A stretch of 64,000 bases of DNA. Source: Streptosporangiaceae bacterium. GTDB taxonomy: Bacteria; Actinomycetota; Actinomycetes; Streptosporangiales; Streptosporangiaceae. The translations under genes and the position numbers were made by a program. Position 1 is the first letter of the stretch, and each line of letters opens with the position of its first letter. This document shows, piece after piece, positions 4,279 through 58,824 of the stretch. Where the stretch lies: assembly GCA_019246795.1 (NCBI GenBank), contig JAFAPY010000210.1:13127-77126 (forward strand), in the 5' to 3' direction. The notes under the pieces were generated by a model. It worked only from the letters and a program-made list of their open reading frames with translations. It searched no databases and was not told the origin of the DNA.

Positions 4279-5175
4279 TCATACCGCGGCCGGCGAATCG
4301 CAGGGCTCGGCCGGATCGAGCAGGCGGTTTCTCAGGTGCGCCAGCGCCCGCGCGAGCAGCCTGGAGACGTGCATCTGGGAAATGCCCAGCCGCTCGCCGA
4401 TCTCGGTCTGGGTGAGGTTGCCGTAAAAGCGCATGACCAGGATCCGCTGCTCGCGTTCCGGCAGCTCGTCCCAGTGGGCGTTGACGGCTTCCATGTCGAT
4501 CGTGTGCGAGACGCCCGGGTCGTCGTCGCCGAGAATGTCCGCGAGCAGGGCCGGGTCGTCACGGTCCGACAGCGGCGCGTCAAGCGAGTACGTGCTGAAC
4601 ACCAGGTCCGCCTGGCGGGCCTCCAGCATGTCGTCCTGGCTGACGCCCAGCCGCTCGGCAAGCTCGTCCTCCGCGGGCGCCCGGCCGAGCTGCTGGGTCA
4701 GCTCCTCGTTGGCCTTGCGCAGTTCCAGCAGCAGCTCCTGGGCGGACCGGCGCACGTGGATCTGCCACCGCTTGTCACGGAAGTGGCGCTTGATCTCGCC
4801 GCTGACGCAGGGCTGGGCGTAGGCGGACAGGCTGTCGCCAACCTCCGGGTCGTAGTTGTTGATGGCCTTGAGCAGGCCGACGTACCCGACCTGCATGAGG
4901 TCCTCGGTGGGCTCCGGGCTGCCCCGGTACTGCCGCACGCAGGAGCGGACCAGCTTGGCGTAGCGCTCGACGAGGATCTCGCACGCAGCCGCGCGCAGCT
5001 CGCTGTCCCGCGGCAGCGCGCGCACCTTGGCCAGCAGCTCGTTATCTGACAGCTCCTTGAGCTGCGCCCGCGACCACGGCACCGCGTCGTCCCCGGTGCC
5101 GGATCCGGTGATGCCCGACGAGGGCTCCGCGGCGAGCGTTCGGCTCGCGCGGGCCCTGTGGGTTGCCTGCGTCAA
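4279..5175 (-). CDS. SigB/SigF/SigG-family RNA polymerase sigma factor
   Basis: Regions 2-4 recognisable (DLMQVGYVGLLKAINNYDPEVG, YAQPCVSGEIKRHFRDKRW, LTQTEIGERLGISQMHVSRLL). Proposed TTG start at 5175 has GAAGGAGAG 6 nt upstream. The ORF is open up to 5424, so the start is uncertain. Confidence 0.85.
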   Translation of the reverse strand: MTQATHRARASRTLAAEPSSGITGSGTGDDAVPWSRAQLKELSDNELLAKVRALPRDSELRAAACEILVERYAKLVRSCVRQYRGSPEPTEDLMQVGYVGLLKAINNYDPEVGDSLSAYAQPCVSGEIKRHFRDKRWQIHVRRSAQELLLELRKANEELTQQLGRAPAEDELAERLGVSQDDMLEARQADLVFSTYSLDAPLSDRDDPALLADILGDDDPGVSHTIDMEAVNAHWDELPEREQRILVMRFYGNLTQTEIGERLGISQMHVSRLLARALAHLRNRLLDPAEPCDSPAAV

Positions 5176-5345
5176 CGTGGCCTCTCCTTCGACCCCCCGC
5201 AATGAACGGACACCTGCGGTGTGCCCGGCCGGTGTGCGATAAACATAGGCGGATGTGATCTTGGTCACGACTATCCCGGCGCTCGCACAGCCTTGGTCAC
5301 ATACACCCCGACAGTAGCGCTGGACGCGAGGGTCGGGCGGAGAAA

Positions 5346-5485: not shown

Positions 5486-5821
5486 ATGACCGAAACCGGG
5501 AGCTCCGGCAACTGGCGGATGATGGGCGCCTGCCTGTCAGCGGACCCCGATCTTTTCTTCCCCATTTCGGCCGCAGGCCCGGCGCTGCGGCAGACCGAGC
5601 AGGCCAAGGCGATCTGTTCTGGGTGTAGGGTGCGTCAGGAATGCCTGCAGTTCGCGCTGTCGCACGACCAGCTGTACGGCATCTGGGGCGGCACCACCCC
5701 CGACGACCGCCAGCGGTACCGGCGCCGCCAGCGCCGCCGGGCCGCGGCAGCCGCCGCGGCGGCCGCAACCGCGGCCCCCGCGCGGCCGGCGCCACCGCGA
5801 AAGCGCGCCGTCACCGTCTAG
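5486..5821 (+). CDS. WhiB-family (Wbl) transcriptional regulator
   Basis: Four-Cys pattern C-X29-CSGC-X5-C. Also the G(I/V)WGG turn (LYGIWGGTTPDDR) and a basic C-tail. Confidence 0.9.
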   Translation: MTETGSSGNWRMMGACLSADPDLFFPISAAGPALRQTEQAKAICSGCRVRQECLQFALSHDQLYGIWGGTTPDDRQRYRRRQRRRAAAAAAAAATAAPARPAPPRKRAVTV

Positions 5822-15044: not shown

Positions 15045-16418
15045 TCACCCGGCGCGGGCGGCGGCGGAGGCTATGCCGGACGTGGAGCGGCCGCTCAGGT
15101 ACGGCACGGTGACCACCCGGCCGCCCCATTCCCGCAGCGCGGCCGCTTCCGGCAGGTCGCTGCCGTCGTAGTCGCCGCCCTTGACCCAGATGGCGGGCCG
15201 TAGCTGGCGCAGCAGCCGTTCCGGTGTGTCCTCCTCGAAGATGGCGACCTGGTCCACGCAATCCAGCGCGGCCAGCACCGCAGCCCGGTCGGCGGCAGGG
15301 ACGAGCGGCCGTCCGGGTCCCTTCAGCCGCCGCACCGAGTCGTCGGAGTTCATGCAGACCACAAGGCGGTCGCCCAGCGACCTGGCCGCACGCAGCATGC
15401 TCACGTGGCCGGCGTGCAGCACGTCGAAGCACCCGCCCGCCGCGACGAGCACGCCGCCCGCCGCCCGGATCGCCTCGGCCGCCTCCGCGGGGGAGGGCTC
15501 ACCGGACCAGCGTGCGCCCGGCGCCGGGCCCCCGGGCAGGCCGTGTACGCCTCCGCCCGCGAGATAGCCGGTGGCCGCGGCCACCGCTGCCGTGACCGCC
15601 TCGGACATGGTGGCGCCGTCCCGCAGCGCAGCCGCCGCAGCGGCCGCGAACTGGTCGCCCGCGCCGCATGGATCGCTGACCTGGATTGCTGCCGCCGGGA
15701 TCGCCAGCGGTGCCTGCCCGGCGCTGGCGAGCAGCGCGCCCCGGCCGCCAAGCGTCACCGCCAGCGACCGGACCGGCCAGCTGCCCAGCAGCCGCTCGGC
15801 GGCCGCCGCCGCCGGCAGCACCGCGCCCCTGGGATCGGGCAGCCCGCAGGCGCGCGCCGCTTCGGCGCCGTTCGGGGTGGCAAGCCAGGTCCCGGCTACC
15901 GGTGCCGTCCCCCGGGGATGCGGGTCCCAGACCAGGGGGACACGGCCCGCGCGGGCGGCCACCGCCTCCCGCAGCCGCGGATCGGCGCTGGTGCCGTGAC
16001 CGTAGTCGCTGACCAGGACCGCCCCGGCATCCATGATGGCCTCAGCCGCGCGGCGGCCGGCCCGGCCCGGCGTGCCTGCGGGCCTGTCCACCCGCAGCAG
16101 GGTCTGGCCCGCCGCGCGGATGCGCGTCTTTTCCTGCATCCCGCCGTCGAGCGGCAGCGGGATGACCGTCACCGTGCCCGGCAGCAGGTCCCGTGCCGCG
16201 GCGCTGGCCGGGTCACCGCCGAACGGCGCGATCAGCACGATCTCGCCGGCATCGCGCGCGGCCAGCAGCGCCGCGAGCGCGGCGCCGCCCGGGCGCAGCC
16301 GCTCGGCCGCGTCCTCGACCACCGGCACCGGGGCGTCGGGGCACAGCCGCCCGGCGTGCCCGGTGACGTCCCTGTCCAGCAGGGCGTCCCCGACGATCAC
16401 CAGCGGCCCGCTGCTCAT
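15045..16418 (-). CDS. hldE: Bifunctional D-beta-D-heptose 7-phosphate kinase / D-beta-D-heptose 1-phosphate adenylyltransferase
   Basis: N-terminal PfkB kinase domain (VVGDALLDRD..., DPCGAGDQF). C-terminal cytidylyltransferase domain (GGCFDVLHAGHVSML...NSDDSVRRLKG). ATG 16418 forms an ATGA overlap with the upstream stop. The 857-aa listed ORF is a composite. Confidence 0.9.
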   Translation of the reverse strand: MSSGPLVIVGDALLDRDVTGHAGRLCPDAPVPVVEDAAERLRPGGAALAALLAARDAGEIVLIAPFGGDPASAAARDLLPGTVTVIPLPLDGGMQEKTRIRAAGQTLLRVDRPAGTPGRAGRRAAEAIMDAGAVLVSDYGHGTSADPRLREAVAARAGRVPLVWDPHPRGTAPVAGTWLATPNGAEAARACGLPDPRGAVLPAAAAAERLLGSWPVRSLAVTLGGRGALLASAGQAPLAIPAAAIQVSDPCGAGDQFAAAAAAALRDGATMSEAVTAAVAAATGYLAGGGVHGLPGGPAPGARWSGEPSPAEAAEAIRAAGGVLVAAGGCFDVLHAGHVSMLRAARSLGDRLVVCMNSDDSVRRLKGPGRPLVPAADRAAVLAALDCVDQVAIFEEDTPERLLRQLRPAIWVKGGDYDGSDLPEAAALREWGGRVVTVPYLSGRSTSGIASAAARAG

Positions 16419-18070
16419 CGCTCCTCCCGCCGGTCCGGCCAGCTCGGAATGGCCCGGCCGCCCAGGATGGCGGACACCGCCTCGGCCAGGCTGGGCGCGC
16501 ACGGCGCCCCTGCCTTCTCCTCCGGCTTCGTCGCCGCCGTGGGGACCAGCACCGCCCTGGCCCCGGCGGCGCGGGCCGCAGCCACGTCGGCGCCGATGTC
16601 GCCGATGACCACGCATTCGGCCGCGGTCACGCCCAGCGCCGCCGCCGCCGCGGTGATCAGCCCGGGCGCCGGCTTCCTGCAGCCGCAGCGATCCTCGGGA
16701 CGGTGCGGGCACACCAGCCACACGGCGAACGGGCCGCACGCCGCGTCCACCTCGGCGTTGACCGCCGCGACCTGTGCCGGGGTGATCAGGCCGTGGCCGA
16801 CACCGGACTGGTTGGTCACCACGCCGACGCCGATCCCGGCCTGCCGCACGGCCGCGACCGCGTCCGCGGCGCCCGGCACGGGTTGCACCAGCGCCGGGTC
16901 GCCGTTGTACGGGACGTCGTGGACCAGGGTCCCGTCGCGGTCGAACAAGACCGCAGCCGGACGCGGCGGCCACGGCCGGGCATGCCGGAACCGCCGCAGC
17001 CCGGCCAGCCAGTGCCAGGTCGCCAGCGGCGGTATCACCACGCTGGTGACGATCATCGCGCCGGCTTCCGGCCAGGTCCGGGGCCCGGCAAGCACCCGCC
17101 GCGTGGCGAACTCGCCGGTGATCGCGGCCCAGCCCGCTGCCGCGGCGGCCGCGGCGGTGCTGGTCTGGGTCATCGGGCGGCCCCTGCGCCCCCGGGGGGT
17201 CGACCTCCCCAGGCCCCCTCGCAGGGTGCTGGCCCGGGGGGACGATCCCCTCCGGCCCTCCCGGCGGGGACGGCTGGCCGCCGCACACGCTATCGCGGCG
17301 GCAGCCAGCGCGCAGGCGGCCAGGTGAGCCGGGCGCCGACCCGGGCTGGCGCCCGCGCGCTCCCGCCAGCGCCGCCCGTGCAGCCGGAACATCGCCGCGT
17401 CGTCGGCGTTCCCCGCCTGCGCCGGGATGCTCGCCCACAGGCTCGGCGGGCGCACCGGGTGGCTGGTGCGCCGCGCGCCGCGGCGCAGCGACCAGCCCAG
17501 GCGCTGCAGCCGCAGCGCCAGGTCGCTGTCCTCGCGGTAGGCGCGGGGAAAGCGCTCGTCGAAGCCGCCGGCATCGGCGAGCGCCGCGCGCCGGTACGCC
17601 ATGTCGGCGGTGATCCACGATGCGCCGGCCAGCCCGAGGGTGGCCCGCTGCGAGTCCGCGGGCCTGCGGCCTTCCGGCCAGGGCACCTCGATGACCCCCT
17701 GCACTGCGGCCACGTCTGCGGGCACGTCCCGCAGGTCGTCGGCCAGCTCGTCCGCCCAGGCGGCCCCGACCTGCACGTCATCGTCGAGGAACACCACCCA
17801 CTCGGCGGGCGGCGCGGCGCGCCAGCCGGCGTTGCGGGCGGCGGCCGGCCCGCGGCCCTCCAGCGTGACGATCGTGGTGCGGCCGGCCAGCGGCTCGGGC
17901 AGCCGGGCCGGCAGCGGGTCGGCGGTGTCCTTCCTGTCGTCCGCGAGGACCAGCCCGGCAAGCGTGTCCACCTCGGCGGCGCCGACCGCGGCGCCGAGCG
18001 CGTCCAGGCACGCCTGCAGGCAGGGCCGGCCGATGGTGGGGATCACGCATACGTAACGTGGCGCGGTCAT
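16415..18070 (-). CDS. Fusion ORF: GT2 glycosyltransferase, hydrophobic linker, HAD-IIIA heptose 1,7-bisphosphate phosphatase (GmhB-like)
   Basis: N-terminal GT2 (VCVIPTIGRP...VFLDDDV). C-terminal HAD-IIIA motifs (VLFDRDGTLV, VVTNQSGV, CGCRKPAPG, IGD). No stop between the two halves across 551 codons. Confidence 0.75.
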   Translation of the reverse strand: MTAPRYVCVIPTIGRPCLQACLDALGAAVGAAEVDTLAGLVLADDRKDTADPLPARLPEPLAGRTTIVTLEGRGPAAARNAGWRAAPPAEWVVFLDDDVQVGAAWADELADDLRDVPADVAAVQGVIEVPWPEGRRPADSQRATLGLAGASWITADMAYRRAALADAGGFDERFPRAYREDSDLALRLQRLGWSLRRGARRTSHPVRPPSLWASIPAQAGNADDAAMFRLHGRRWRERAGASPGRRPAHLAACALAAAAIACAAASRPRREGRRGSSPRASTLRGGLGRSTPRGRRGRPMTQTSTAAAAAAAGWAAITGEFATRRVLAGPRTWPEAGAMIVTSVVIPPLATWHWLAGLRRFRHARPWPPRPAAVLFDRDGTLVHDVPYNGDPALVQPVPGAADAVAAVRQAGIGVGVVTNQSGVGHGLITPAQVAAVNAEVDAACGPFAVWLVCPHRPEDRCGCRKPAPGLITAAAAALGVTAAECVVIGDIGADVAAARAAGARAVLVPTAATKPEEKAGAPCAPSLAEAVSAILGGRAIPSWPDRREER

Positions 18071-18081
18071 CGGGCCCGCTG

Positions 18082-18106
18082 CTACCCGGGGCGCGCACGT
18101 GCAAAC
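18082..18106 (-). promoter_or_regulatory. SigB/SigF-type promoter GTTT-N15-GGGTAG, 11 nt upstream of the ATG at 18070 (leaderless-type)
   Basis: Minus strand reads GTTTGCACGTGCGCGCCCCGGGTAGCAGCGGGCCCGATG. Same architecture as the promoters at 33325-33349 and 33515-33538. Confidence 0.6.
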
Positions 18107-18155
18107 AGCCGTTCTTACGTTTGAACTCGTCCTTTCTCAGCAAGTAACACAGGTG

Positions 18156-19159
<1,004 letters not shown>

Positions 19160-22004: not shown

Positions 22005-22133
22005 CGCTGCCTCCGTCAGGGTTCCGCTCGGCTGCCCACCTGTCCACCGTGAGCCGGGTCAAACATCGCGTGCCGCACCGCTCCGGAAGGCACGCAGGGC
22101 CGGTCCTTTCCCGGCAGGGCCCCGTGCGCGGTA

Positions 22134-23480
22134 ATGTCGGGGATCATGACCATGCGGCTTGCCCAGGCGCCCGGCAACGAGCCCTCAGGTGCCCGCGGAG
22201 TTCCGGGCGACGAACCCGGTGCCGTCGCACGCGAGGACCGGCTCAGGGACATCCAGGCGATCGCCGACGCCGCGCTGTCCCGGCTGCAGGCGCCGGAGCT
22301 GCTGCGCGAGCTGCTGGAGCGCGTCAGGGAGGTGCTGCGCGCCGACACCGCGGCGGTGCTGCTGCTGGACCGCGCGTCCGGGCAGCTCGTCGCCACCGCA
22401 GCCTGCGGTATCGAGGAGGAAGTACAGCAGGGAGTCCGCATCCCGGTCGGCATGGGATTCGCGGGCCGGGTGGCCGCCGAGCGGCGCCCGGTGATGCTCG
22501 AGCATGTTGACCACGGCACGGTGCTCAATCCGCTGCTGCTGGCCAGGGGCATCCGCTCGCTGCTCGGCGTGCCGCTGCTCGCGGGCGGGGACGTGCTCGG
22601 CGTGCTGCACGTCGGTTCGCTGCAGCACCGGGCGTTCACCGCTGACGAGACGGTTCTGCTGCAGCTTGCCGCCGACCGCGCGGCCGTTGCCGTGCAGTCG
22701 ATGACGTCACAGGACGACCGGATGGCCGCGGTGGCGCTGCAGCGTAGCCTGCTCCCCCCCACGCTGCCCGCCGTGGCGGGGCTGGACATGGCGGCGCGAT
22801 ACGTGACCGGTGCCGGGATCGTCGGCGGCGACTGGTACGACGTGTTCGTGCTGCCGTCAGGCAGGCTGGGCCTGGTGATCGGGGACGTGGCCGGCAGCGG
22901 GCTGCCGGCGGCGGTGATCATGGGCCGGGTACGCAGCGCGTTGCGCGCGTACGCGCTCGAGGGCGCCGACCCGGGCGAGGTGCTGCGCAAGCTCGACCGC
23001 AAGATCCAGTACTTCGAGGCCGAGGCCATGGCCACCGTGCTGTACGCGGTCTGCGAGCCCGGCAGCGGGCAGTTCGCCGTCGCCTCGGCCGGGCACCTGC
23101 CGCCGGTCGTCTCGGTCCCCTGCCGGCCTGCGGGCCCTGTCGACGTCGAGGTGGGGCCGCCGATCGGCGTGGCCGAGGACCGGCCGCGGCGGTCCAGCCC
23201 GATCTCGCTGCCGCCGGGCGCGATGATCTGCTTCTACACCGACGGCCTGGTGGAAAGGCGGGACAGGCCGCTGGACCACGGTATCGCCGCCCTGGCGGCA
23301 GCGCTCAGCGAGGCGCAGACCGTGACAACGCCGCCGAGCGGGGCCGAGGCCGCCTGCGCCACGATCATGAGCGCGCTCATCGGCCACGACCCGGCCCCCG
23401 ACGATGCCGCGGTGCTGGTGCTGCGGCGCGAGCCGACAGCACCCGCGGAACCGTCCGCGGCGGTTCCGGCAGGCCGCTAG
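22134..23480 (+). CDS. GAF-PP2C (SpoIIE-family) phosphatase
   Basis: GAF-like N-terminal part (LLERVREVLRADTAAVLLLD...GFAGRVAAERRPV). SpoIIE motifs (GGDWYDVF, IGDVAGSG, FYTDGLVERR, DDAAVLVL). Confidence 0.85.
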   Translation: MSGIMTMRLAQAPGNEPSGARGVPGDEPGAVAREDRLRDIQAIADAALSRLQAPELLRELLERVREVLRADTAAVLLLDRASGQLVATAACGIEEEVQQGVRIPVGMGFAGRVAAERRPVMLEHVDHGTVLNPLLLARGIRSLLGVPLLAGGDVLGVLHVGSLQHRAFTADETVLLQLAADRAAVAVQSMTSQDDRMAAVALQRSLLPPTLPAVAGLDMAARYVTGAGIVGGDWYDVFVLPSGRLGLVIGDVAGSGLPAAVIMGRVRSALRAYALEGADPGEVLRKLDRKIQYFEAEAMATVLYAVCEPGSGQFAVASAGHLPPVVSVPCRPAGPVDVEVGPPIGVAEDRPRRSSPISLPPGAMICFYTDGLVERRDRPLDHGIAALAAALSEAQTVTTPPSGAEAACATIMSALIGHDPAPDDAAVLVLRREPTAPAEPSAAVPAGR

Positions 23481-24684
23481 GCGGCCTTCGCGGTCGCGTT
23501 GCCGTAAACCGCGAGCGTCTCCCCGGCGATCCGGTCCCAGGAGTAGCGGGACCTGGCCCGGTCGGCTGCCGCCACCCCGTAGGCCTCTAGCAGCATCGGG
23601 TGCGCCAGGAGCTGCCTGATCCGCTGGGCCAGCAGTGCCGGCTTGGTCGGCGGGACCAGGATGCCCGTCGTCCCGTCGACCACGGCGTCCACGTGGCCGC
23701 CGACCGGCGGCGCGACCACCGGGGTGCCGCAGGCCATCGCCTGCAGGGACGTGGTGCCGGACGGCTCGTAGGTGCAGGTGCTGACCACCAGGTCGGCGGA
23801 GCGCAGCAGCGCGGGCAGCGCGCCGTACTCCACCTTCCCGGTGAACGCTACCCGGTCGGAGATGCCCAGCTTGCCGGAGAACCGGGCCGCGTCGACATAG
23901 TCGCCGTGGCGGGGGAGCTCGGCGCGGGGCGGCCCGCCGACGATCACGAGTTCCGCGCCAGGGACCTTGGTCAGCGCCAGCAGCAGCGTCTGCAGCGCCT
24001 CGCGTTCGGAGAAGTCGGCCGTGGCGAGCAGCCGCGGACGGCCGTTGCGCTCAGCGGCCGGCCCTTCCGGCGCGAACGTGTCGGTGTCCACGCCCCAGGG
24101 CACCACCCTGATCGAGGACCGGTGCACGCCCAGGCTGGCCAGGTCAGAAACCTCCGCCGAGTTCGTCGCGACCACGGCCGCGGCGCTGCGCCCGATCGCG
24201 GGCTCCAGTCTCCTCCGCGCCGCCGCCGCGCTGTCTGCCATCGACCGCCCGCGCCGCTCGGCGACGCCGAGTGAGTTGAACTCCTGCACCACCGGGATGC
24301 TGAGGTCCCGCGCCGCGGCGAGCGCCGCCAGCCCGCTGGTCCAGCGCAGCGCGTGCACCACATCCGGCCGGTCCCGCAGCCAGCGGGTGCGCAGCGGGCC
24401 GCTGAACGCCGGCACCTGCTGCAGCAGGTCGGTGTCGCCGCGTTCGCGGGCTGCCGGCCCGGGGGGGAGCTGGCCAGCGGTGATGTGCTCGACGCGCGCC
24501 CCGTCGGGGAGCGCGGCCTCGTCGGGCAGGTCCGGGTGGTGCTTCTGGGCGTACAGCGTTACCTGGTGACCTTGCTGGGCGAGCTTCCTGGTGAGCTCGG
24601 TAAGCCCGATGTCATCGCTGTCAGGTCCGGAGCCTGCCCGCGGACGCAGCGGCGTCGCATGCTGGGCGACCAGGGCTATCTTCA
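23477..24684 (-). CDS. GT4-family glycosyltransferase (independently initiated at ATG 24684)
   Basis: MKIALVAQH... preceded by GAGGAGG 7 nt upstream. C-terminal EX7E-type region (YEPSGTTSLQAMACGTPVV). The same frame stays open upstream into the STAS ORF. Confidence 0.8.
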
Positions 24685-25225
24685 TGCAGCGGCCTCCTCG
24701 CCGACGAACTTCGCTCGGCACGGTGTCATCGGCGGGGCCGGGAAACAAAAGAAAGGCAGTGCCACGTCGGCACGCCCCGCGAGAACACCGTAACGCGGTC
24801 AGCGTGCCTGCGTCGTAGGCACCGCTAGGGGAAGCATATCCCATACGCACGCGCGGCAAACACCGGCTGGCGGATAAGCCCGCGGCGGCTGCTGCGACGC
24901 TCTCGAAGACGGGGATCAGCCGGTCCGCAGTGGTCAGCCTGAGGATCTTCGCGACCGCAGGCTGCGGGGACACCAGCGCGAGCACGCCGCCTTGCCGGTC
25001 CAGCTCCCGGTTTACCCGCAGCAGCGCGTGCAGCGCGGAAGAGTCCAGGAAGCGCAGCCCGGACAGGTCGATGATCAGCGTGCGCGGCTGCTGCGCAACC
25101 TCCTCCTCCAGAAGGCGGCGCAACTCGTCGGTGTTGGTCACGTCGGCCTCTCCGGCGATCTCCACCAGCGTGTACGGCTGGCCGGCGGATTCCCGGGCCT
25201 TGACCAAGACCGTCAGCAGATCCAC
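24685..25225 (-). CDS. STAS-domain anti-sigma-factor antagonist (RsbV/SpoIIAA-like) with no in-frame stop; reads through into the GT4 ORF
   Basis: VDLLTVLV...LIIDLSGLRFLDSSALHALLRV...ILRLTTADRLIPVF, with a phosphorylatable Ser in the DSS motif. GTG at 25225 or 25243. No stop codon before 23477. Confidence 0.7.
24743..24776 (-). terminator. Intrinsic-terminator-like hairpin plus U-tract between the STAS domain and the GT4 start
   Basis: Minus-strand RNA GGCGUGCC-GACGU-GGCAC(U)GCC followed by UUUCUUUUGUUU. Confidence 0.55.
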
Positions 25226-25296
25226 GCACTTGTTGTACCACACAGCGCATTACCGCGGGGTAGCCCGCGCCCATGTTGACTCGGCCCCCGAGCCGG

Positions 25297-25740
25297 TCAC
25301 CAGCCCGGCAGCGCCATGTGCATCGTGATCGTGGTCCCCGATGTGCCCGAGCGCACGTCCACCTTGTCGCAGACCTCGTGCACGATCCACAGCCCGTGAC
25401 CGCCGGGGCCGTCCAGGGAAGGCCGGCGCCGGCCCGCGAGCGGATCGGAGATCGCGCCCTCGTCGCTGACCTGGCAGACGATCTCCCCGGCGTCGTGCCA
25501 GATCCGCAGGCAGCCAGGGGACCTGGCGTGGCGGACGGTGTTGGCGGCCACCTCGCTGACCGCCAGCACCAGGTCGACCGTGCGGGCCTCGCTCAGCCCG
25601 GCAGCGCCGGCGTGACGGCGTACCACGGCACGCAGTGCGGACAGATCCGTGGTGAAGCTGAACGTCACCGGGCGCGCGCGTCGTGCGGATTCTGCCTCCC
25701 CGGTCACCAGCCACACGATACACTGCGGCCCCGCGGGCAC
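25297..25740 (-). CDS. Anti-sigma factor / STAS kinase (RsbW/SpoIIAB-like HATPase)
   Basis: VSEVAANTVRHA (N-box-like), DEGAISDP, GGHGLWIVHEVCD (G-box-like). Sits immediately upstream of the STAS ORF. Confidence 0.8.
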   Translation of the reverse strand: MPAGPQCIVWLVTGEAESARRARPVTFSFTTDLSALRAVVRRHAGAAGLSEARTVDLVLAVSEVAANTVRHARSPGCLRIWHDAGEIVCQVSDEGAISDPLAGRRRPSLDGPGGHGLWIVHEVCDKVDVRSGTSGTTITMHMALPGW

Positions 25741-25817
25741 ATCGACGGGCGCCGCGGCGGTAGCAATCAGTGACGAGTTCGCAGCTCGCCGGCGCGGGCT
25801 GCCGGTCTGCGGAGGTC

Positions 25818-26021
25818 AGGATGCGACGGGTCGGCGGCCTGGTGTTGGCGATATGGCTGATCATCGGGGCGATAGCGGCAGGCCAGCGCGGTTACTACGG
25901 GTCGTCGCCGTCGAACTGCGCCCATGCGGGCACGATCGTGCTCACGATCGCCGCCGGACCGCTCAACTACCTCGGGGTCAACCCCAAGCTTTCCTGCCAC
26001 GTGCCGCAGCCAAGCAGCTAG
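25818..26021 (+). CDS. Small membrane protein (hypothetical)
   Basis: MRRVGGLVLAIWLIIGAIAAGQRGYYG... has one or two TM helices. ATG 25818 is internal to the listed ORF. Overlaps the convergent GT9 3' end by 44 nt. Confidence 0.45.
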   Translation, partial: RMRRVGGLVLAIWLIIGAIAAGQRGYYGSSPSNCAHAGTIVLTIAAGPLNYLGVNPKLSCHVPQPSS

Positions 26022-31057: not shown

Positions 31058-32283
31058 GCGCGGAGCTCCGGCAGCACCGGCACCACCAGGCTGCGCGCGC
31101 TCGTGCCGGCGTACGCGTCCAGGGCGTCGCTGACCACGCGGTCCATCGCGTACCGCGCCGAGGCGCGGGCCCGCCCGGCGGCGCCCATGCTGCGCCGCAG
31201 CCCGGGATCGGCGAGCAGCCTCCGGATAGCGGCGGCCACCAGGTCGGGGCGGCGGGGCGGCACGTGGATCCCGGTCACCCCGTTGACCACGCTGTCCGAC
31301 AGGCCGCCGACCGCCGAGACGACCACGGGAAGACCGCACGCCATCGCCTCCACCGCCGCGATGCCGAACGGCTCGTACCACGGCACGCAGACCACCGCGT
31401 CCGCGGAGCGGTACAGCCCGGGCAGCACCGACCGGTTCACCCGGCCGAGGAGCCGGACCCGGTTGCTGACGCCGAGCGCATCGGCGAGATCGCGCAGCCG
31501 GCTCACGTCCCGGTCCAGGTGCAGCTCGGCGGGGGCCGGGCCGCCGGCGATGACGAGCTCGGCGCCGGGCAGCTCGGCCAGCGCCGAGATGGTGTTGCCG
31601 ATGCCCTTGCGCTGCACCAGCCTGCCGACATACAGCAGCCGGTGGGGCGCCGTGCGCGGCACGGCCGTACAGGCGGGTCCCTGCGGCGTGTAGTGGCCGA
31701 CGTCGACGCCGCACGGGATCACCACGACCCGGCTGGTGTCGGCGCCCAGCCTGGTCAGCTCGACCACCTCATCGGGGCAGGTGGCCACGATCCTGTCGGC
31801 GTCTTGCAGCAGGCTGGTCTCGATGGCGATCCGCTGCGGCGGCGAGGTGTCCAGCACCCCCTGCTCGCGCCGCTTGACCACGCCGAGCGCATGGAAGGTG
31901 TGCAGCACCGGGATGCCCAGCGGCCGCGCCGCGCGCACCGAGGCATACCCGGACATCCAGAAGTGGGAGTGCACCACGTCTGGCCGGTCCAGCGACCACT
32001 GCCGGTACAGGTCGGCGGCGAACTCGTCCATGTACGGCAGCAGCAGGTCCTTGCACATCGGCTCCGGCGGACCCGCGCTGACGTGGTCGACCGTCACCCC
32101 GGGCCCCAGCGGTACCCGGCGCGGCATGCCGAGGTCGTCACGGCGGGTGTGCACCACGACCTCATGGCCCCGTTCGGCCAGCCCGGCCGCCAGGGCGGCC
32201 ACGTGCACGTTCTGGCCGCCCGCATCGGCGCCGCCCAGCACCGCCAGCGGGCTGGCGTGCTCGGAGACAATCGCGATCCTCAT
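31054..32283 (-). CDS. GT4-family glycosyltransferase (MshA-like fold)
   Basis: MRIAIVSEHASPL...GGQNVHVAALA. EX7E region (YEPFGIAAVEAMACGLPVV). ATGA overlaps at both ends. Confidence 0.85.
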   Translation of the reverse strand: MRIAIVSEHASPLAVLGGADAGGQNVHVAALAAGLAERGHEVVVHTRRDDLGMPRRVPLGPGVTVDHVSAGPPEPMCKDLLLPYMDEFAADLYRQWSLDRPDVVHSHFWMSGYASVRAARPLGIPVLHTFHALGVVKRREQGVLDTSPPQRIAIETSLLQDADRIVATCPDEVVELTRLGADTSRVVVIPCGVDVGHYTPQGPACTAVPRTAPHRLLYVGRLVQRKGIGNTISALAELPGAELVIAGGPAPAELHLDRDVSRLRDLADALGVSNRVRLLGRVNRSVLPGLYRSADAVVCVPWYEPFGIAAVEAMACGLPVVVSAVGGLSDSVVNGVTGIHVPPRRPDLVAAAIRRLLADPGLRRSMGAAGRARASARYAMDRVVSDALDAYAGTSARSLVVPVLPELRA

Positions 32284-33314
32284 CCGGCCGCCATCCCCGC
32301 CGCCTCCACCGCGGCAACCCCTGCGAGCGCCCGCACCGCCTCGGTCACCTGGGCCGCGGTGATCCCGGCCAGGCACGGGTGGCCGGGCACGGGGCATTGC
32401 CGGGCCCGGGATCCGGCGCACGGCGCGTCCTGGTCGCCGAGCACCACCGCCGGGACCAGCCAGGGGCGCCAGCGCTCCAGCGGGACCGTGGGCGCGAACA
32501 GCGACACGACCGGGGTGCCGACCGCCGCCGCCAGGTGCGCTGGCCCGGTGTTGCCGGTCACCACCGCGGCGGCGCCCGCGATGACCGAGGCGAGCTGGGC
32601 CAGGCTGGTCTGGCCGCCGAGGTCGGTGCCGTGCTCTCCGGCCACCGCGGCGGTCAGCGCTCGTTCCGCTGGCGAGCCGGTGACCAGCACATGCCAGCCG
32701 TCCCGGGCCAGCGCGGCGACGAAGCCCGAGGCGTGCCCGGGCAGCGGCGCCCGCGCGGGCACCGAGGCACCCGGGTGCACCACCACGTACCGGCCGCCGG
32801 GCAGTCCGCTGACCGGGGGGAGCGGCGAGCGCAGCCGCAGCCGCCGGTCGGCGGGCGGCGGGAAGCCGGCGGCCTGCGCGACCGACAGCATCCGCTCCAC
32901 CTCGTGCAGGCCGCCGGCCGGCAGCCGGTGCCGCACGTCGAGCAGCGAGCCCGGGTAGTCCTCCGGCGCCGCGGTGATATGCGGCACCCCGGCGAGCCGC
33001 AGCAGGAGCGCGGTCGGCAGCGGATCCTGGTGGTAGGAGGTAAGGATGACCGCCTGGTCGGCGCGCTGTGCCCGGATCGCGTCCGCGGCCCGCAGCACGT
33101 CCTGCCGCAGCACCGGCCCCGGCTCGGGGTCCACCCAGGGGCACTGCCAGGTCAGCACCGTGTCCACGCCGGGCAGCAGCCGGGCCGCCGGCAGTCCCCG
33201 TGGCCCCGCGAGCAGCACGACACGGTCCGCGCCCGCGGCCACCGCCCGGACCGCCGGGCCGGCCAGCAGAACATCGCCCGTGCTGTCCAGCCGGACGACA
33301 ACTACGCTCGGCAT
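32280..33314 (-). CDS. GT9-family glycosyltransferase (heptosyltransferase-like), first gene of a 7-gene operon
   Basis: VVVRLDSTGDVLLAGPAVRAV, GNTGPAHLAAAVGTPVV. ATG 33314 lies 10 nt downstream of GGGTAG. The listed 565-aa ORF is over-extended. Confidence 0.85.
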   Translation of the reverse strand: MPSVVVVRLDSTGDVLLAGPAVRAVAAGADRVVLLAGPRGLPAARLLPGVDTVLTWQCPWVDPEPGPVLRQDVLRAADAIRAQRADQAVILTSYHQDPLPTALLLRLAGVPHITAAPEDYPGSLLDVRHRLPAGGLHEVERMLSVAQAAGFPPPADRRLRLRSPLPPVSGLPGGRYVVVHPGASVPARAPLPGHASGFVAALARDGWHVLVTGSPAERALTAAVAGEHGTDLGGQTSLAQLASVIAGAAAVVTGNTGPAHLAAAVGTPVVSLFAPTVPLERWRPWLVPAVVLGDQDAPCAGSRARQCPVPGHPCLAGITAAQVTEAVRALAGVAAVEAAGMAAG

Positions 33315-33324
33315 GCGGCGGGGG

Positions 33325-33349
33325 CTACCCAGCACCAGGAACCGGAAAC
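33325..33349 (-). promoter_or_regulatory. SigB/SigF-type promoter GTTT-N15-GGGTAG, 10 nt upstream of the ATG at 33314
   Basis: Minus strand reads GTTTCCGGTTCCTGGTGCTGGGTAGCCCCCGCCGCATG. Confidence 0.6.
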
Positions 33350-33364: not shown

Positions 33365-33371
33365 ATGCGGC

Positions 33372-33462
33372 GCCCCAGCTCGCCGCCGACGCCCAGCTCT
33401 CCGCCGGCGCCCAGCTCTCCGCCGGCGCCCAGCTCTCCGTCGGCGCCCAGCTCTCCGCGGGC
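33372..33462. repeat. Five tandem 18-bp repeats (gcccagctctccgccggc) in the divergent promoter region
   Basis: Units at 33372, 33391, 33409, 33427 and 33445. Copies 2 and 3 are identical; the others differ by 1-3 nt. Confidence 0.85.
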
Positions 33463-33514
33463 GCCGTGGCGTCGCCGCGTGCCGCGCCGTGACCGCAAAC
33501 TGCCGCGCCGGCGG

Positions 33515-33538
33515 GTTTCGCCTCCGGCCAGTGGGTAC
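33515..33538 (+). promoter_or_regulatory. SigB/SigF-type promoter GTTT-N14-GGGTAC, 10 nt upstream of the ATG at 33549
   Basis: GTTTCGCCTCCGGCCAGTGGGTACCCGCACTGGCATG. Confidence 0.6.
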
Positions 33539-33548
33539 CCGCACTGGC

Positions 33549-34136
33549 ATGTCCGTTCTCGCTGACGTCAAATCCCGGCTGGCCGGCCTGGCCCGTTCGG
33601 AGACCGATCGCTACGGCGGCGACGAGGAGCGCCCGCTCGGCGGCTACCTGGGCACGATGGCCGCCTACAGCGCGGTCGTGGCCGCGCTGGCCGGGGTGAC
33701 CCGGGCCACCAGGCGCGACATCCCCGACGCCCTCGGCGCCAGGGATATGGTGCTGTACGCCGTGGCGACCCACAAGCTGAGCAGGCTGCTGACCAAGGAT
33801 TCTGTGACCAGCCCGCTGCGCGCGCCCTTTACCTCCTACCGCGGCACCCAGGGGCCGGCGGAGCTCAAGGAAGAGGTGCGCGGGCACGGAGCGCAGAAGG
33901 CGATCGGCGAGCTGATCACCTGCCCGTTCTGCACCAGCGTCTGGGTGGCCACCGGCCTGATGGCCGGGCTCATCCACCTGCCGCGGACCACCAGGCTCGC
34001 CATCGACACCCTGGCCGCGACCGCCGGCGCCGACATGCTGCAGTTCGGCTACGCCTGGCTGGAGAAGGCGTCGTCGTTACCCGCGCCGGGCGTCAGCTTC
34101 CCGCGGCGGCCTGCCTGGCCACGACGAGATCGCTGA
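33549..34136 (+). CDS. DUF1360-domain membrane protein
   Basis: LYAVATHKLSRLLTKDSVTSPLRAPF...ELITCPFCTSVWVA signature. ATG 33549 is internal to the listed ORF. Confidence 0.75.
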   Translation: MSVLADVKSRLAGLARSETDRYGGDEERPLGGYLGTMAAYSAVVAALAGVTRATRRDIPDALGARDMVLYAVATHKLSRLLTKDSVTSPLRAPFTSYRGTQGPAELKEEVRGHGAQKAIGELITCPFCTSVWVATGLMAGLIHLPRTTRLAIDTLAATAGADMLQFGYAWLEKASSLPAPGVSFPRRPAWPRRDR

Positions 34137-34695
34137 CCAGGCCGGCATAGGCGCGGTCCCTGCTGTCCGCGTCCGGCCCCCGCAGCACGGCGGAGGGGTG
34201 GATGGTGGTCACGGCGAGTCCCTGCCAGCCGCCGAGCGCCGCCTCCTCGGCCTTGCCGCGATGCTCGCCGACCCGGAACCGGGAGCCGAACATGGCCTCG
34301 CCGGCCACGGCGCCGAGCAGCACCACCAGCCGGGGGCGCACCGCGCCGAGCTCGGCGTCCAGCCAGAACCCGCAGGCCCTGATCTCGGTGGTGTTCGGGC
34401 GCTGGTGGATGCGGCGCTTGCCGCGCTCGGTCCACTTGAAGTGCTTGACCGCGTTGGTCACGTACACGTCGGCGCGGCTGATGTCGGCTTCGTCGAGGGC
34501 ACGGTCCAGCAGCCGGCCCGCCGGCCCGACGAACGGATGACCCTGCTTGTCCTCCTGGTCGCCGGGCTGCTCGCCGAGCAGCATGATCGCCGCGCCGGGC
34601 TGTCCCTCGCCGAAGACGGTCTGCGTGGCCCGCGCATACAGGTCGCAGCGGGTGCACCCGGCTGCTTCATCTGCGAGTTCGGTCAGCGTGTCCAC
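34093..34695 (-). CDS. udgX: UdgX-type family-4 uracil-DNA glycosylase (covalent uracil-DNA binding protein)
   Basis: CxxC Fe-S ligands (GCTRCDL), motif [21 protein letters not shown]. Diagnostic R-loop insert GKRRIH after VKHFKW. Motif [11 protein letters not shown] start. Confidence 0.85.
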
Positions 34696-34789
34696 GGGAT
34701 GGCTCTACCCGGTGCCGCCGTTCCCACGCCCGCCAGGTGGTGTAGCCAGCCAGGCCCTGGGTAACCGGCGGGCACCGAAGGAGGGAACG

Positions 34790-52747: not shown

Positions 52748-53218
52748 ATGAGCGCGCAGCGAATCAATCCGGCAGAACTCGGCCGACCCTCCGGCTTCGC
52801 GCACGCGGTATCGGTGACCGCGAGCCGGATGGTGTTCCTCGCGGGCCAGACCGCGCACGACGGTGAAGGGAAGATCGTCGCCGGGGGAGTGGTGGCCCAG
52901 TTCGAGCGGGCGCTGGGCAACCTGCTCACCGCGCTCGCCGCGGCGGGCGGGCGCCCCGGCGACCTGGTCAGCCTGACCGTCTACCTCACCGACATCGACG
53001 CCTACCAGGCACACAGCCGCCAGATCGGCGCGGTCTGGCGGCGCCTGGCCGGGACCGAGTATCCCGCCATGGCCGCCGTCGCGGTATCGCGGCTGTGGGA
53101 CCCCGAGGCTCTGATCGAGATCCAGGGTATCGCCGCGCCTGCTGGCTTAGCAGGTGTGGTTACCCCCCGGAAACGGGGGGTAACCACGCTTCTGATCGGC
53201 GGTCCGTTCAGGCGGTGA
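52748..53218 (+). CDS. RidA/YjgF-family protein with an unusual ~25-aa C-terminal extension
   Basis: FAHAVSV...VFLAGQTA...AMAAVAVSRLWDPEALIEIQGIA is the normal family end. The ORF continues through the hairpin at 53156-53187 to 53218. Confidence 0.8.
   Translation: MSAQRINPAELGRPSGFAHAVSVTASRMVFLAGQTAHDGEGKIVAGGVVAQFERALGNLLTALAAAGGRPGDLVSLTVYLTDIDAYQAHSRQIGAVWRRLAGTEYPAMAAVAVSRLWDPEALIEIQGIAAPAGLAGVVTPRKRGVTTLLIGGPFRR
53156..53187. terminator. Perfect 14-bp stem with GAAA tetraloop between convergent RidA and hsp20 genes
   Basis: GTGGTTACCCCCCG-GAAA-CGGGGGGTAACCAC. Confidence 0.6.
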
Positions 53219-58704: not shown

Positions 58705-58824
58705 AGGCACCCACGCTAGCCCCGGCGCGCGCCCGCTTTCGCAAGGAGGCGTCGAGGTTGGCAGGAACGCGGCGGGTACGCTGCTTGGCGGCCTTGATAT
58801 CACGCCATCCGGAGCCGCCCGCTC

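What the first reader, a model, noticed from the sequence alone, without database searches (positions are those of the whole stretch)
18071..18110. Third copy of the same promoter architecture in front of the GT2-GmhB/HldE operon
Minus strand reads GTTTGCACGTGCGCGCCCCGGGTAGCAGCGGGCCCGATG, that is GTTT-N15-GGGTAG-N11-ATG. It has the same hexamers and spacing as the two promoters at 33.3-33.5 kb, although the operons are 15 kb apart.

Three independent occurrences placed exactly in front of start codons argue for a common regulon linking both heptose operons and DUF1360.

Weaker relatives:
- GGGTAG-N9-GTG before udgX (34705-34710).
- GTGT-N15-GGGTAA before the ChaB-like gene (34740-34764).
- GGTT-N14-GGGTAC before the GluRS paralog (58756-58779).
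Basis: partly seen in the sequence, partly recalled or inferred. Interest (0 to 1): 0.62.

Follow-up and report, generated by a model that had tools for sequence, protein, structure and literature searches.

The report
Stress-sigma (SigF/SigB-type) leaderless promoter
The motif in front of the GT2-GmhB/HldE heptose operon is a real promoter of the well-known SigF/SigB stress-sigma type that starts its mRNA at or next to the ATG. The same promoter type sits in front of the equivalent heptose operon in many other actinomycetes, so the promoter class is ordinary but the heptose-to-stress-regulon link appears not to have been reported.

Summary
On the minus strand, 18106-18082 reads GTTT-N15-GGGTAG, followed by 11 nt and the first possible ATG (18070) of a GT2+GmhB fusion gene. 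That gene is translationally coupled (ATGA overlap) to HldE.

The two sites at 33.3-33.5 kb are also exact. The window holds 3 hits against 0.07 expected.

Genome-wide, GTTT-N14-16-GGGTA occurs 27 times against about 8 expected (p~1e-7). The spacing peak is sharp, and more than half of the hits lie within 40 nt of gene starts. About ten hits sit 8-11 nt before a start codon, the leaderless arrangement.

This is the published consensus of SigF (mycobacteria) and the SigB homologues (Streptomyces, Bacillus). The genome encodes two SigB/F/G-family sigma factors, one of them in this window, plus RsbW-like, STAS and PP2C partner-switching proteins. The other predicted targets (CsbD, ChaB, OtsA, topoisomerase IB, a BON protein) resemble known SigF/SigB regulons.

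In 75 other actinobacterial loci, the strict motif lies upstream of whichever gene leads the heptose operon in 36 cases, against 0.4 expected.

The promoter type is already known. No transcript data exist for this organism, so sigma dependence and start sites remain inferred.

The parts
18103..18106 (-). -35 element GTTT of the GT2-GmhB/HldE operon promoter
   Evidence: -35 of the SigF/SigB consensus (PMC4694148, PMC8346170)
18082..18087 (-). -10 element GGGTAG, 15 nt downstream of the -35 element
   Evidence: GGGTA is the TSS-mapped SigF -10 motif in M. smegmatis (PMC6448022)
18068..18081 (-). 11-nt stretch without a Shine-Dalgarno sequence, plus the ATG; predicted start site 0-4 nt before the ATG (leaderless or nearly so)
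   Evidence: Mapped start sites of S. coelicolor SigB-type promoters lie 8-10 nt after the -10 hexamer. The start codon position is conserved in Amycolatopsis orthologues.
16415..18070 (-). GT2 glycosyltransferase fused to a HAD-IIIA/GmhB-like heptose bisphosphate phosphatase (551 aa); first gene of the operon
   Evidence: Pfam; NCBIfam
15045..16418 (-). HldE-like bifunctional kinase/adenylyltransferase; its start overlaps the upstream stop (ATGA) and follows a GGGAGGAG Shine-Dalgarno sequence
33325..33349 (-). Second promoter, GTTT-N15-GGGTAG, N10 before ATG 33314 of GT9 heptosyltransferase (32280-33314). GT4, GmhA, SDR and carbamoyltransferase follow on the same strand.
33515..33538 (+). Third promoter, GTTT-N14-GGGTAC, N10 before ATG 33549 of DUF1360 (33549-34136)
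   Evidence: conserved at DUF1360 orthologues
34740..34764 (+). Candidate weaker promoter GTGT-N15-GGGTAA, 25 nt (with a GAAGGAGGG Shine-Dalgarno sequence) before ChaB ATG 34790
   Evidence: ChaB is SigF-dependent in M. smegmatis. The GTGT class is not enriched genome-wide.
34705..34710 (-). GGGTAG-N9-GTG before the UDG-family gene (34093-34695); -10-like only, with no GTTT-type -35
58756..58779 (+). GGTT-N14-GGGTAC, 45 nt before ATG 58825 of a GluRS-like paralogue; weak candidate
4279..5175 (-). SigB/SigF/SigG-family sigma factor gene (298 aa); candidate reader of these promoters
   Evidence: TIGR02980: 254 bits against a cut-off of 234; Pfam regions r2, r3 and r4
5221..5244 (-). GTTT-N14-GGGCAC upstream of the sigma gene; possible autoregulatory promoter, weak evidence
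   Evidence: the GGGCA class is not enriched genome-wide
22053..23480 (+). GAF-SpoIIE (PP2C) phosphatase, RsbU/RsbP-like partner-switching input
23477..25249 (-). STAS anti-sigma antagonist domain in one open frame with a GT4 glycosyltransferase
   Evidence: in same-genus genomes the two are adjacent but separated by stop codons
25297..25815 (-). RsbW/RsbA-like anti-sigma factor kinase (HATPase_c_2)

Best explanation
The site at 18106-18082(-) is a promoter read by RNA polymerase carrying a group-3 stress sigma factor of the SigB/SigF/SigG family. The sigma contacts GTTT at -35 and GGGTAG at -10, which are 15 nt apart.

Transcription should start 8-12 nt after the -10 hexamer, which is at or up to 4 nt before ATG 18070. 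The mRNA for GT2-GmhB and the translationally coupled HldE is therefore leaderless or nearly so, and would be translated without a Shine-Dalgarno sequence.

The same sigma type reads the promoters of the GT9-GT4-GmhA-SDR-carbamoyltransferase operon and of DUF1360 at 33.3-33.5 kb. Both halves of the ADP-heptose glycan island would then be switched on together with a general-stress regulon (CsbD, OtsA, trehalase-like GH15, topoisomerase IB, a BON protein, probably ChaB).

Sigma activity is most likely set by partner switching, meaning an RsbW-like anti-sigma kinase, a STAS antagonist and a PP2C phosphatase. All three are encoded in this window.

Shown here:
- motif identity and statistics;
- gene-proximal geometry;
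- presence of the sigma factors and the regulators;
- cross-genus conservation.

Inferred, not shown:
- actual transcription start sites;
- which of the two sigma paralogues acts;
- the inducing signal.
For: 1. The motif is exact, and the window holds 3 hits against 0.07 expected.

2. Genome-wide there are 27 hits against about 8 expected, with a spacing peak at N14-16 and the top observed/expected ratio among 80 permuted pairs.

3. About 14-16 of the 27 hits lie within 40 nt upstream of a plausible start codon, and about 10 lie at 8-11 nt. Chance hits with that leaderless geometry are expected at about 0.02 genome-wide (my estimate from the counts).

4. The motif matches published consensus sequences:
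- M. smegmatis SigF is GTTT-N14-19-GGGTA, with many sites 8-11 nt from the start codon (PMC4694148).
- GGGTA is the -10 of 56 TSS-mapped promoters (PMC6448022).
- The nine S. coelicolor SigB homologues recognise GTTT..GGGTA(G/C/T), with start sites 8-10 nt after the hexamer (PMC8346170).

5. Two sigma factors exceed the TIGR02980 SigBFG cut-off: window 4279-5175 and contig C206, the latter with an rsbW-like gene upstream. RsbW-like, STAS and PP2C genes lie at 22-26 kb.

6. Genes downstream of the other hits are typical SigB/SigF targets: CsbD, CoxG, OtsA, a GH15 trehalase-like protein, topoisomerase IB, a BON protein and GAF-ANTAR.

7. Conservation of the heptose operon promoter:
- In 75 assessable loci with a GT2-GmhB orthologue, the strict motif lies within 200 nt upstream of whichever gene leads the operon in 36 loci (carbamoyltransferase in 21, GT2-GmhB in 15), and a relaxed form in 8 more.
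- 36 of the 60 strict hits in 1.1 Mb fall in these 17 kb, against 0.4 expected.
- The taxa include Nocardia, Amycolatopsis, Saccharopolyspora, Saccharomonospora, Actinomadura, Propionibacteriaceae and Modestobacter (names).

8. 15 of 30 DUF1360 loci, including this genome's own, carry a SigF-like motif, mostly N9-10 before ATG or GTG.

9. 5 of the 27 genome hits lie on this one 80.6-kb contig, which also carries a sigma gene (binomial p = 1.4e-4).
Against: - There are no transcript data. Only DNA metagenome runs hold this sequence and no RNA runs were found. Start sites and sigma dependence are therefore inferred.
- The GT9-side promoter has no counterpart in relatives. There GT9 is operon-internal, which explains the absence but removes that conservation test.
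- About 8 of the 27 genome hits are expected by chance, and several lie inside genes or antisense to them.
- 31 of the 75 orthologous operons show no recognisable motif.
- Neither sigma paralogue can be assigned. The rsbW-sigF-like operon on C206 has no such motif upstream.
- The A of the ATG is the 11th or 12th nt after the hexamer in these three promoters, slightly further than the 8-10 nt mapped in Streptomyces. A 1-4-nt leader is as likely as a truly leaderless mRNA.
Confidence: 0.85

Rival explanations
1. These are housekeeping (SigA-type) leaderless promoters. The TA of GGGTAG would be the start of an ordinary actinobacterial TANNNT -10 box, and the GTTT would be incidental.
For: - Leaderless genes with TA at -12/-11 and T at -7 are common here: 188 of 1661 first-start genes without a Shine-Dalgarno sequence.
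- About 25 genes carry GGGTAG-N9-ATG without a clear GTTT -35, for example udgX.
Against: - In the three promoters the TA sits at -13/-14 from the ATG, not -12, and the sixth hexamer position is not T (TAGCAG, TAGCCC, TACCCG).
- GGG precedes the TA in only 15 of the 188 general leaderless sites.
- The GTTT co-occurrence at N14-16 is 3.3-fold enriched and position-specific.
- Both GTTT and GGGTA are conserved across genera in front of the operon.
Confidence: 0.06
2. The bipartite motif is the operator of a DNA-binding regulator, or the promoter of a different sigma class (ECF or WhiG/FliA), rather than a SigB/SigF-type promoter.
For: No experimental sigma assignment exists for this uncultured organism. 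The genome has further sigma-70 family genes (13 weaker TIGR02980 matches).
Against: - A fixed distance to start codons and a variable 14-16-nt spacer are promoter properties, not operator properties.
- The hexamers match the SigF/SigB consensus letter for letter.
- From my own knowledge, they do not resemble the ECF consensus (GGAAC..GTT/CGTC) or the WhiG consensus (TAAA..GCCGATAA).
- The predicted regulon content matches SigB/SigF regulons.
Confidence: 0.06
3. The three matches are chance occurrences in GC-rich intergenic DNA.
For: The motif has only 9-10 specified bases, and about 8 chance hits are expected per genome.
Against: - The window holds 3 hits against 0.07 expected, and no shuffle reached 3.
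- Chance hits with leaderless geometry are expected at about 0.02 genome-wide, against at least 10 observed (my estimate).
- The orthologous promoters are conserved in dozens of genera.
Confidence: 0.02

Closest known systems
SigF-dependent promoters of Mycobacterium smegmatis and M. tuberculosis (GTTT-N14-19-GGGTA)
   Same: - Identical -35 and -10 core and the same spacer range.
- Many sites lie 8-11 nt before the start codon.
- The regulon includes ChaB, topoisomerase IB, trehalose genes and a GT2 glycosyltransferase.
- Targets cluster around the sigF locus, and control is by an RsbW anti-sigma factor and STAS antagonists (PMC4694148, PMC6448022, PMC7693655).
   Different: - The organism here is an uncultured 71% GC actinomycete found in rock and soil metagenomes.
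- The sigma genes score below the SigF-specific NCBIfam cut-off (318 and 221 bits against 372), so orthology to mycobacterial SigF is not established.
- No paper in the searched library mentions both heptose and SigF in this sense.
Promoters of the nine SigB homologues of Streptomyces coelicolor, and Bacillus subtilis SigB (GTTTAA-N12-14-GGG(A/T)A(A/T))
   Same: - GTTT at -35 and GGGTA(G/C/T) at -10, including GGGTAG and GGGTAC variants.
- Mapped start sites lie 8-10 nt after the hexamer.
- Paralogous sigmas cross-recognise one promoter type.
- The system responds to osmotic and general stress, and CsbD is a target (PMC8346170).
   Different: This genome has only two clear family members, not nine. 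Start sites are unmapped. Most targets here have no leader, whereas Bacillus SigB targets normally have Shine-Dalgarno leaders (my own knowledge).
Leaderless mRNAs of Actinobacteria
   Same: There is no Shine-Dalgarno sequence, and the start codon lies within a few nt of the predicted start site. The genome shows the general TANNNT signal at -12 to -7 from start codons.
   Different: Here the -10 box is the stress-sigma GGGTA type rather than the SigA TANNNT type. In these three promoters the ATG is 1-2 nt further from the hexamer than in the main N9 class.

Membership tests
SigF/SigB-type (group 3 sigma) promoter | -35 GTTT and -10 GGGTA(N) hexamers | tested here: met
   Exact at 18106-18103 and 18087-18082, and at both 33-kb sites; consensus.
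SigF/SigB-type (group 3 sigma) promoter | Spacer of 14-17 nt between GTTT and GGGTA, with the motif enriched at that spacing only | tested here: met
   The three sites have N15, N15 and N14. The genome-wide spacing profile peaks at 14-16: 27 against about 8.
SigF/SigB-type (group 3 sigma) promoter | Cognate SigB/SigF/SigG-family sigma factor encoded in the genome | tested here: met
   Two genes exceed the TIGR02980 cut-off (311 and 254 bits against 234). One is in the window, at 4279-5175.
SigF/SigB-type (group 3 sigma) promoter | Partner-switching regulators (RsbW-type anti-sigma kinase, STAS antagonist, PP2C phosphatase) | tested here: met
   HATPase_c_2 at 25297-25815, STAS at 23477-25249, GAF-SpoIIE at 22053-23480, and an rsbW-like gene upstream of the C206 sigma gene. 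Their functional link to these promoters was not tested.
SigF/SigB-type (group 3 sigma) promoter | Transcription starts 7-10 nt downstream of the -10 and depends on the sigma factor | not testable with these tools
   No RNA runs hold this sequence, and the organism is uncultured.
SigF/SigB-type (group 3 sigma) promoter | Motif located upstream of genes, with a regulon resembling known general-stress regulons | tested here: met
   More than half of the 27 hits lie within 40 nt of a start codon. Targets include CsbD, OtsA, TopIB, a BON protein, CoxG and ChaB.
SigF/SigB-type (group 3 sigma) promoter | Conservation at orthologous positions | tested here: met
   Heptose operon leader: 36 of 75 strict, plus 8 relaxed. 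DUF1360: 15 of 30. The GT9-side promoter cannot be assessed, because GT9 is operon-internal in relatives.
Leaderless mRNA | 5' UTR of 0-5 nt and no Shine-Dalgarno sequence | tested here: inconclusive
   The 10-11 nt between the hexamer and the ATG contain no Shine-Dalgarno sequence. The predicted start site is 0-4 nt before the ATG, by analogy with mapped promoters. No 5'-end data are available.

The most novel reading that the evidence does not exclude
The conserved actinobacterial ADP-heptose glycan cluster (carbamoyltransferase, GT2-GmhB, GT9, GT4, GmhA, HldE) may be a core, phylum-wide member of the SigF/SigB general-stress regulon. Gram-positive actinomycetes would then make an as yet uncharacterised carbamoylated heptose glycoconjugate specifically under stress or in stationary phase.

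In this genome the cluster has been split into two operons, and each half carries its own copy of the stress promoter. This suggests selection to keep the two halves co-regulated.
Probability: 0.55. Interest if true: 0.45.

Novelty: new member of a known kind. Interest (0 to 1): 0.3.

Why it matters
The promoter class itself is textbook, so the finding does not reveal a new mechanism. It has two uses.

First, it gives a sequence-only definition of a stress regulon in an uncultured soil and rock actinomycete, about 20 promoters in all.

Second, it links a widespread but functionally uncharacterised heptose-glycan gene cluster of actinobacteria to the SigF/SigB stress response. That link tells experimenters when the glycan should be made (stress, stationary phase, hypoxia or osmotic shock), and so how to find it in cultured relatives such as Amycolatopsis, Saccharopolyspora or Modestobacter.

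One report fits this link. In Frankia under salt stress, a SigF-domain sigma factor and a heptosyltransferase were both up-regulated (PMC5563000).

Tried and rejected
- **RNA evidence.** Two run searches found only DNA metagenomes (rock, rhizosphere, root, soil) and no RNA runs.
- **Conservation of the GT9-side promoter.** No motif lies upstream of 15 GT9 orthologues. Inspection showed that GT9 there follows another coding gene and is operon-internal. The test is therefore uninformative rather than negative.
- **Autoregulation of the rsbW-sigF-like operon on contig C206.** No motif lies upstream.
- **One-mismatch variants as classes.** GTTT..GGGCA (34 against 32) and GTGT..GGGTA (19 against 27) are not enriched. 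Only GTTA and GGTT..GGGTA are mildly enriched. The candidate promoters of the sigma gene and of ChaB therefore cannot be supported by statistics alone.
- **Raw count comparison with permuted hexamers**. This was misleading until normalised by single-motif frequency.
- **Literature.** There are no papers on DUF1360 regulation, and none linking heptose genes to SigF/SigB apart from the circumstantial Frankia report.
- **Simple sigma-70 consensus scan of 14.5-18.4 kb.** It found no promoter.
- **Is the partner-switching module part of the heptose island?** STAS-GT4 adjacency is present in nearly all same-genus genomes, whereas GT9 is present in only 12 of 36. The module is probably not specific to the heptose genes.

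Full report
**1. Observation**

The minus strand of the window reads GTTT (18106-18103), 15 nt, GGGTAG (18087-18082), 11 nt, then ATG (18070-18068). That ATG is the first start codon after the in-frame stop of a 551-aa ORF, 16415-18070(-).

Pfam and NCBIfam show this ORF to be a GT2 glycosyltransferase fused to a HAD-IIIA/GmhB-type heptose bisphosphate phosphatase. The next gene (15045-16418) is an HldE-like PfkB kinase plus cytidylyltransferase. Its ATG overlaps the upstream TGA (ATGA) and follows a GGGAGGAG Shine-Dalgarno sequence, so the two genes form one operon.

The two comparison sites are also exact:
- 33349-33325(-): GTTT-N15-GGGTAG-N10-ATG, in front of a GT9 heptosyltransferase.
- 33515-33538(+): GTTT-N14-GGGTAC-N10-ATG, in front of DUF1360.

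The pattern GTTT-N14-16-GGGTAB has 3 hits in the window against 0.07 expected. No shuffle reached 3.

**2.

The window lies on contig C115 of a 4.28-Mb, 424-contig, 71% GC assembly.

GTTT-N14-16-GGGTA occurs 27 times on both strands:
- Expected from single-motif frequencies: 7.8. Expected from the other spacings of the same two words: 8.1 (p = 6e-8 and 1e-7).
- Counts by spacer are 14, 7 and 6 at N14, N15 and N16, against about 2.6 elsewhere.
- The true pair has the highest observed/expected ratio of 80 permuted hexamer pairs.

The hits concentrate at gene starts:
- More than half lie within 40 nt upstream of a plausible start codon, and about ten lie at 8-11 nt.
- Among all GGGTA sites, the distance to a good start codon has a sharp peak at N9-N10.
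- Chance hits with that leaderless geometry are expected at about 0.02 per genome. This is my estimate: the chance rate, times about 3,900 gene starts, times 5 positions.
- Five of the 27 hits lie on contig C115, which is 1.9% of the assembly (p = 1.4e-4). They include a second back-to-back pair about 9 kb upstream of the window.

**3. What the motif is**

It is the published consensus of the group-3 stress sigma factors.
- M. smegmatis SigF is GTTT-N14-19-GGGTA. Many regulon members have the motif 8-11 nt from the start codon. ChaB, a type I topoisomerase, trehalose genes and a GT2 glycosyltransferase are among the targets (PMC4694148).
- GGGTA is the -10 motif of 56 hypoxia-induced, TSS-mapped promoters in M. 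smegmatis (PMC6448022).
- The nine S. coelicolor SigB homologues recognise GTTT..GGGTA(G/C/T) promoters, with start sites mapped 8-10 nt after the hexamer. B. subtilis SigB uses GTTTAA-N12-14-GGG(A/T)A(A/T) (PMC8346170).

The genome has the machinery:
- Two genes exceed the curated cut-off of TIGR02980 (the SigB/SigF/SigG family). One lies on contig C206 behind an rsbW-like gene. The other is in this window at 4279-5175(-), divergent from a WhiB-like gene.
- The window also encodes a GAF-SpoIIE PP2C phosphatase (22053-23480), a STAS antagonist domain (in 23477-25249) and an RsbW/RsbA-like anti-sigma kinase (25297-25815). Together these are the components of a partner-switching module.

Genes behind the other strict hits include CsbD, CoxG/SRPBCC, OtsA, a GH15 trehalase-like protein, topoisomerase IB, an NTP-transferase-BON protein, DUF1264, GAF-ANTAR, a Zn-dehydrogenase, Sua5/YrdC and a Ser/Thr kinase. 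This is typical general-stress content and overlaps the mycobacterial SigF regulon.

**4. Why the motif sits "exactly in front of start codons"**

The genome shows the general actinobacterial leaderless signature. TA at -12/-11 and T at -7 from first start codons without a Shine-Dalgarno sequence occurs in 188 of 1661 genes.

GGG precedes that TA in only 15 of the 188, so GGGTA is a distinct subclass and not the housekeeping -10 box.

In the three promoters the A of the ATG is the 11th or 12th nt after the hexamer, and the interval has no Shine-Dalgarno sequence. With start sites at the 8th-10th nt, as mapped in Streptomyces, the leader would be 0-4 nt long.

**5. Conservation**

A scan of GTDB species genomes returned 80 loci with a GT2-GmhB orthologue at 45-60% identity. 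tblastn mapping shows a conserved operon: carbamoyltransferase, GT2-GmhB, GT9, then GT4 or GmhA-HldE.

The strict motif GTTT-N14-17-GGGTA lies within 200 nt upstream of whichever gene comes first:
- It is present in 36 of 75 assessable loci. The leading gene is carbamoyltransferase in 21 of these and GT2-GmhB in 15. A relaxed form is present in 8 more.
- 36 of the 60 strict hits in 1.1 Mb of locus sequence fall in these 17 kb, against 0.4 expected.
- The taxa include Nocardia, Amycolatopsis, Saccharopolyspora, Saccharomonospora, Actinomadura, Actinophytocola, Propionibacteriaceae, Pseudonocardiales, Modestobacter and the closest uncultured relatives (names).
- Where GT2-GmhB leads, the arrangement is the same as here, for example GTTTGC-N13-GGGTA(N)-N9-12-GTG/ATG in Amycolatopsis.

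GT9 orthologues in relatives have no promoter of their own because they are operon-internal. In this genome the cluster has been split into two operons, and each half carries its own copy of the promoter.

For the other targets:
- DUF1360: 15 of 30 loci across the class, including this genome's own, carry a SigF-like motif, mostly N9-10 before ATG or GTG. The background is 0.024 per 240-nt window.
- ChaB: 8 of 29 orthologues carry a relaxed motif and 3 carry the strict one.

**6. Weaker relatives named in the finding**

- **ChaB** (34740-34764, GTGT-N15-GGGTAA, then 25 nt with GAAGGAGGG before ATG 34790). It is plausible on biological grounds. The GTGT class is not enriched genome-wide.
- **udgX.** It has only the -10-like GGGTAG-N9-GTG, with GCGT in place of GTTT.
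- **The GluRS-like paralogue** has GGTT-N14-GGGTAC 45 nt upstream. This class is 1.6-fold enriched.

These three remain candidates only.

**7. Limits**

- No RNA data exist for this organism. Only rock, rhizosphere, root and soil DNA metagenomes hold the sequence. Start sites, sigma dependence and the inducing signal are therefore inferred.
- Neither sigma paralogue can be assigned. The sigma gene in the window has a GTTT-N14-GGGCAC site upstream (5244-5221), but that class is not enriched. The C206 operon has no such site.
- The STAS-GT4 pair is conserved throughout the genus, whereas the heptose genes are not. The partner-switching module may not be dedicated to the heptose island.

**8. Comparison and verdict**

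The site is a new instance of a well-known promoter class, so its novelty is "new member of a known kind".

An earlier follow-up on the neighbouring divergent pair (e1-3827881) reached the same classification. I reached mine from the sequence, the genome statistics and the literature before reading that note.

What may be new is the consistent placement of this promoter in front of the actinobacterial heptose-glycan operon. The full-text searches returned no paper reporting such a link. One Frankia salt-stress study reports co-induction of a SigF-domain sigma factor and a heptosyltransferase, without connecting them (PMC5563000).

Scores: interest 0.3; confidence in the explanation 0.85.

Noticed in passing
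window 33368-33465: There are 5.4 tandem copies of an 18-bp unit (CGGCGCCCAGCTCTCCGC, 91% matches) in the 234-bp spacer between the divergent GT9 and DUF1360 promoters. No function was tested. This is covered by another finding (e1-3827881).
   Followed up: no
window 53158-53185: A perfect palindrome, GGTTACCCCCCGGAAACGGGGGGTAACC, matches the relaxed promoter pattern on both strands. It looks like a hairpin or terminator rather than a promoter, and is a false-positive source for relaxed motif scans.
   Followed up: no
genome contig C115:3873-3945 (about 9.2 kb before window position 1): A second back-to-back pair of strict SigF-type promoters, with only 24 nt between their -35 elements. One is GTTT-N14-GGGTAG-N9-ATG of an NTP_transf_5+BON protein. 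The other is GTTT-N15-GGGTAG with a 69-nt leader and a GGAGGTG Shine-Dalgarno sequence before a 58-aa ORF and then a 218-aa ORF.
   Followed up: partly
window 18121-18158: The divergent PfkB kinase gene (start GTG 18153 or ATG 18156) is preceded by TTGAAC-N18-TAACAC, ending 2-5 nt before the start codon. This may be a SigA-type leaderless promoter sharing the 85-bp intergenic region with the SigF-type promoter. It was read by eye only, and the sigma-70 consensus scan did not list it.
   Followed up: no
window 23477-25249: The STAS antagonist domain and a GT4 glycosyltransferase form one 590-codon open frame here. In essentially all 36 same-genus genomes, homologous STAS and GT4 genes are adjacent but separated by 1-3 stop codons. 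The fusion is therefore either specific to this genome or an assembly error.
   Followed up: partly
window 25821-26020 (+): A small ORF with high third-position GC encodes a hydrophobic protein of about 66 aa (MRRVGGLVLAIWLIIGAIAAG...). It lies between the RsbW-like gene and the second GT9 gene, on the opposite strand, and overlaps the 3' end of GT9b. It was not searched.
   Followed up: no
whole genome: About 25 genes have GGGTAG-N9-ATG/GTG, with the TAG in frame, but no GTTT at -35. They may be SigB-like GNNT-type promoters, or a separate extended -10 class. This is unresolved.
   Followed up: partly
window 5486-5821 (+) and 5221-5244 (-): A WhiB-family gene lies divergent from the SigB/F/G-family sigma gene. 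GTTT-N14-GGGCAC sits 45 nt upstream of the sigma gene's TTG start, which has a GAAGGAGAGG Shine-Dalgarno sequence. This resembles the GGGCA-type promoter of chaB-rsbW-sigF in M. smegmatis.
   Followed up: partly
loci L001-L080: The operon carbamoyltransferase, GT2-GmhB, GT9, then GT4 or GmhA-HldE is conserved across many actinobacterial families. The window's genome is unusual in having it split and rearranged, with HldE directly behind GT2-GmhB.
   Followed up: partly
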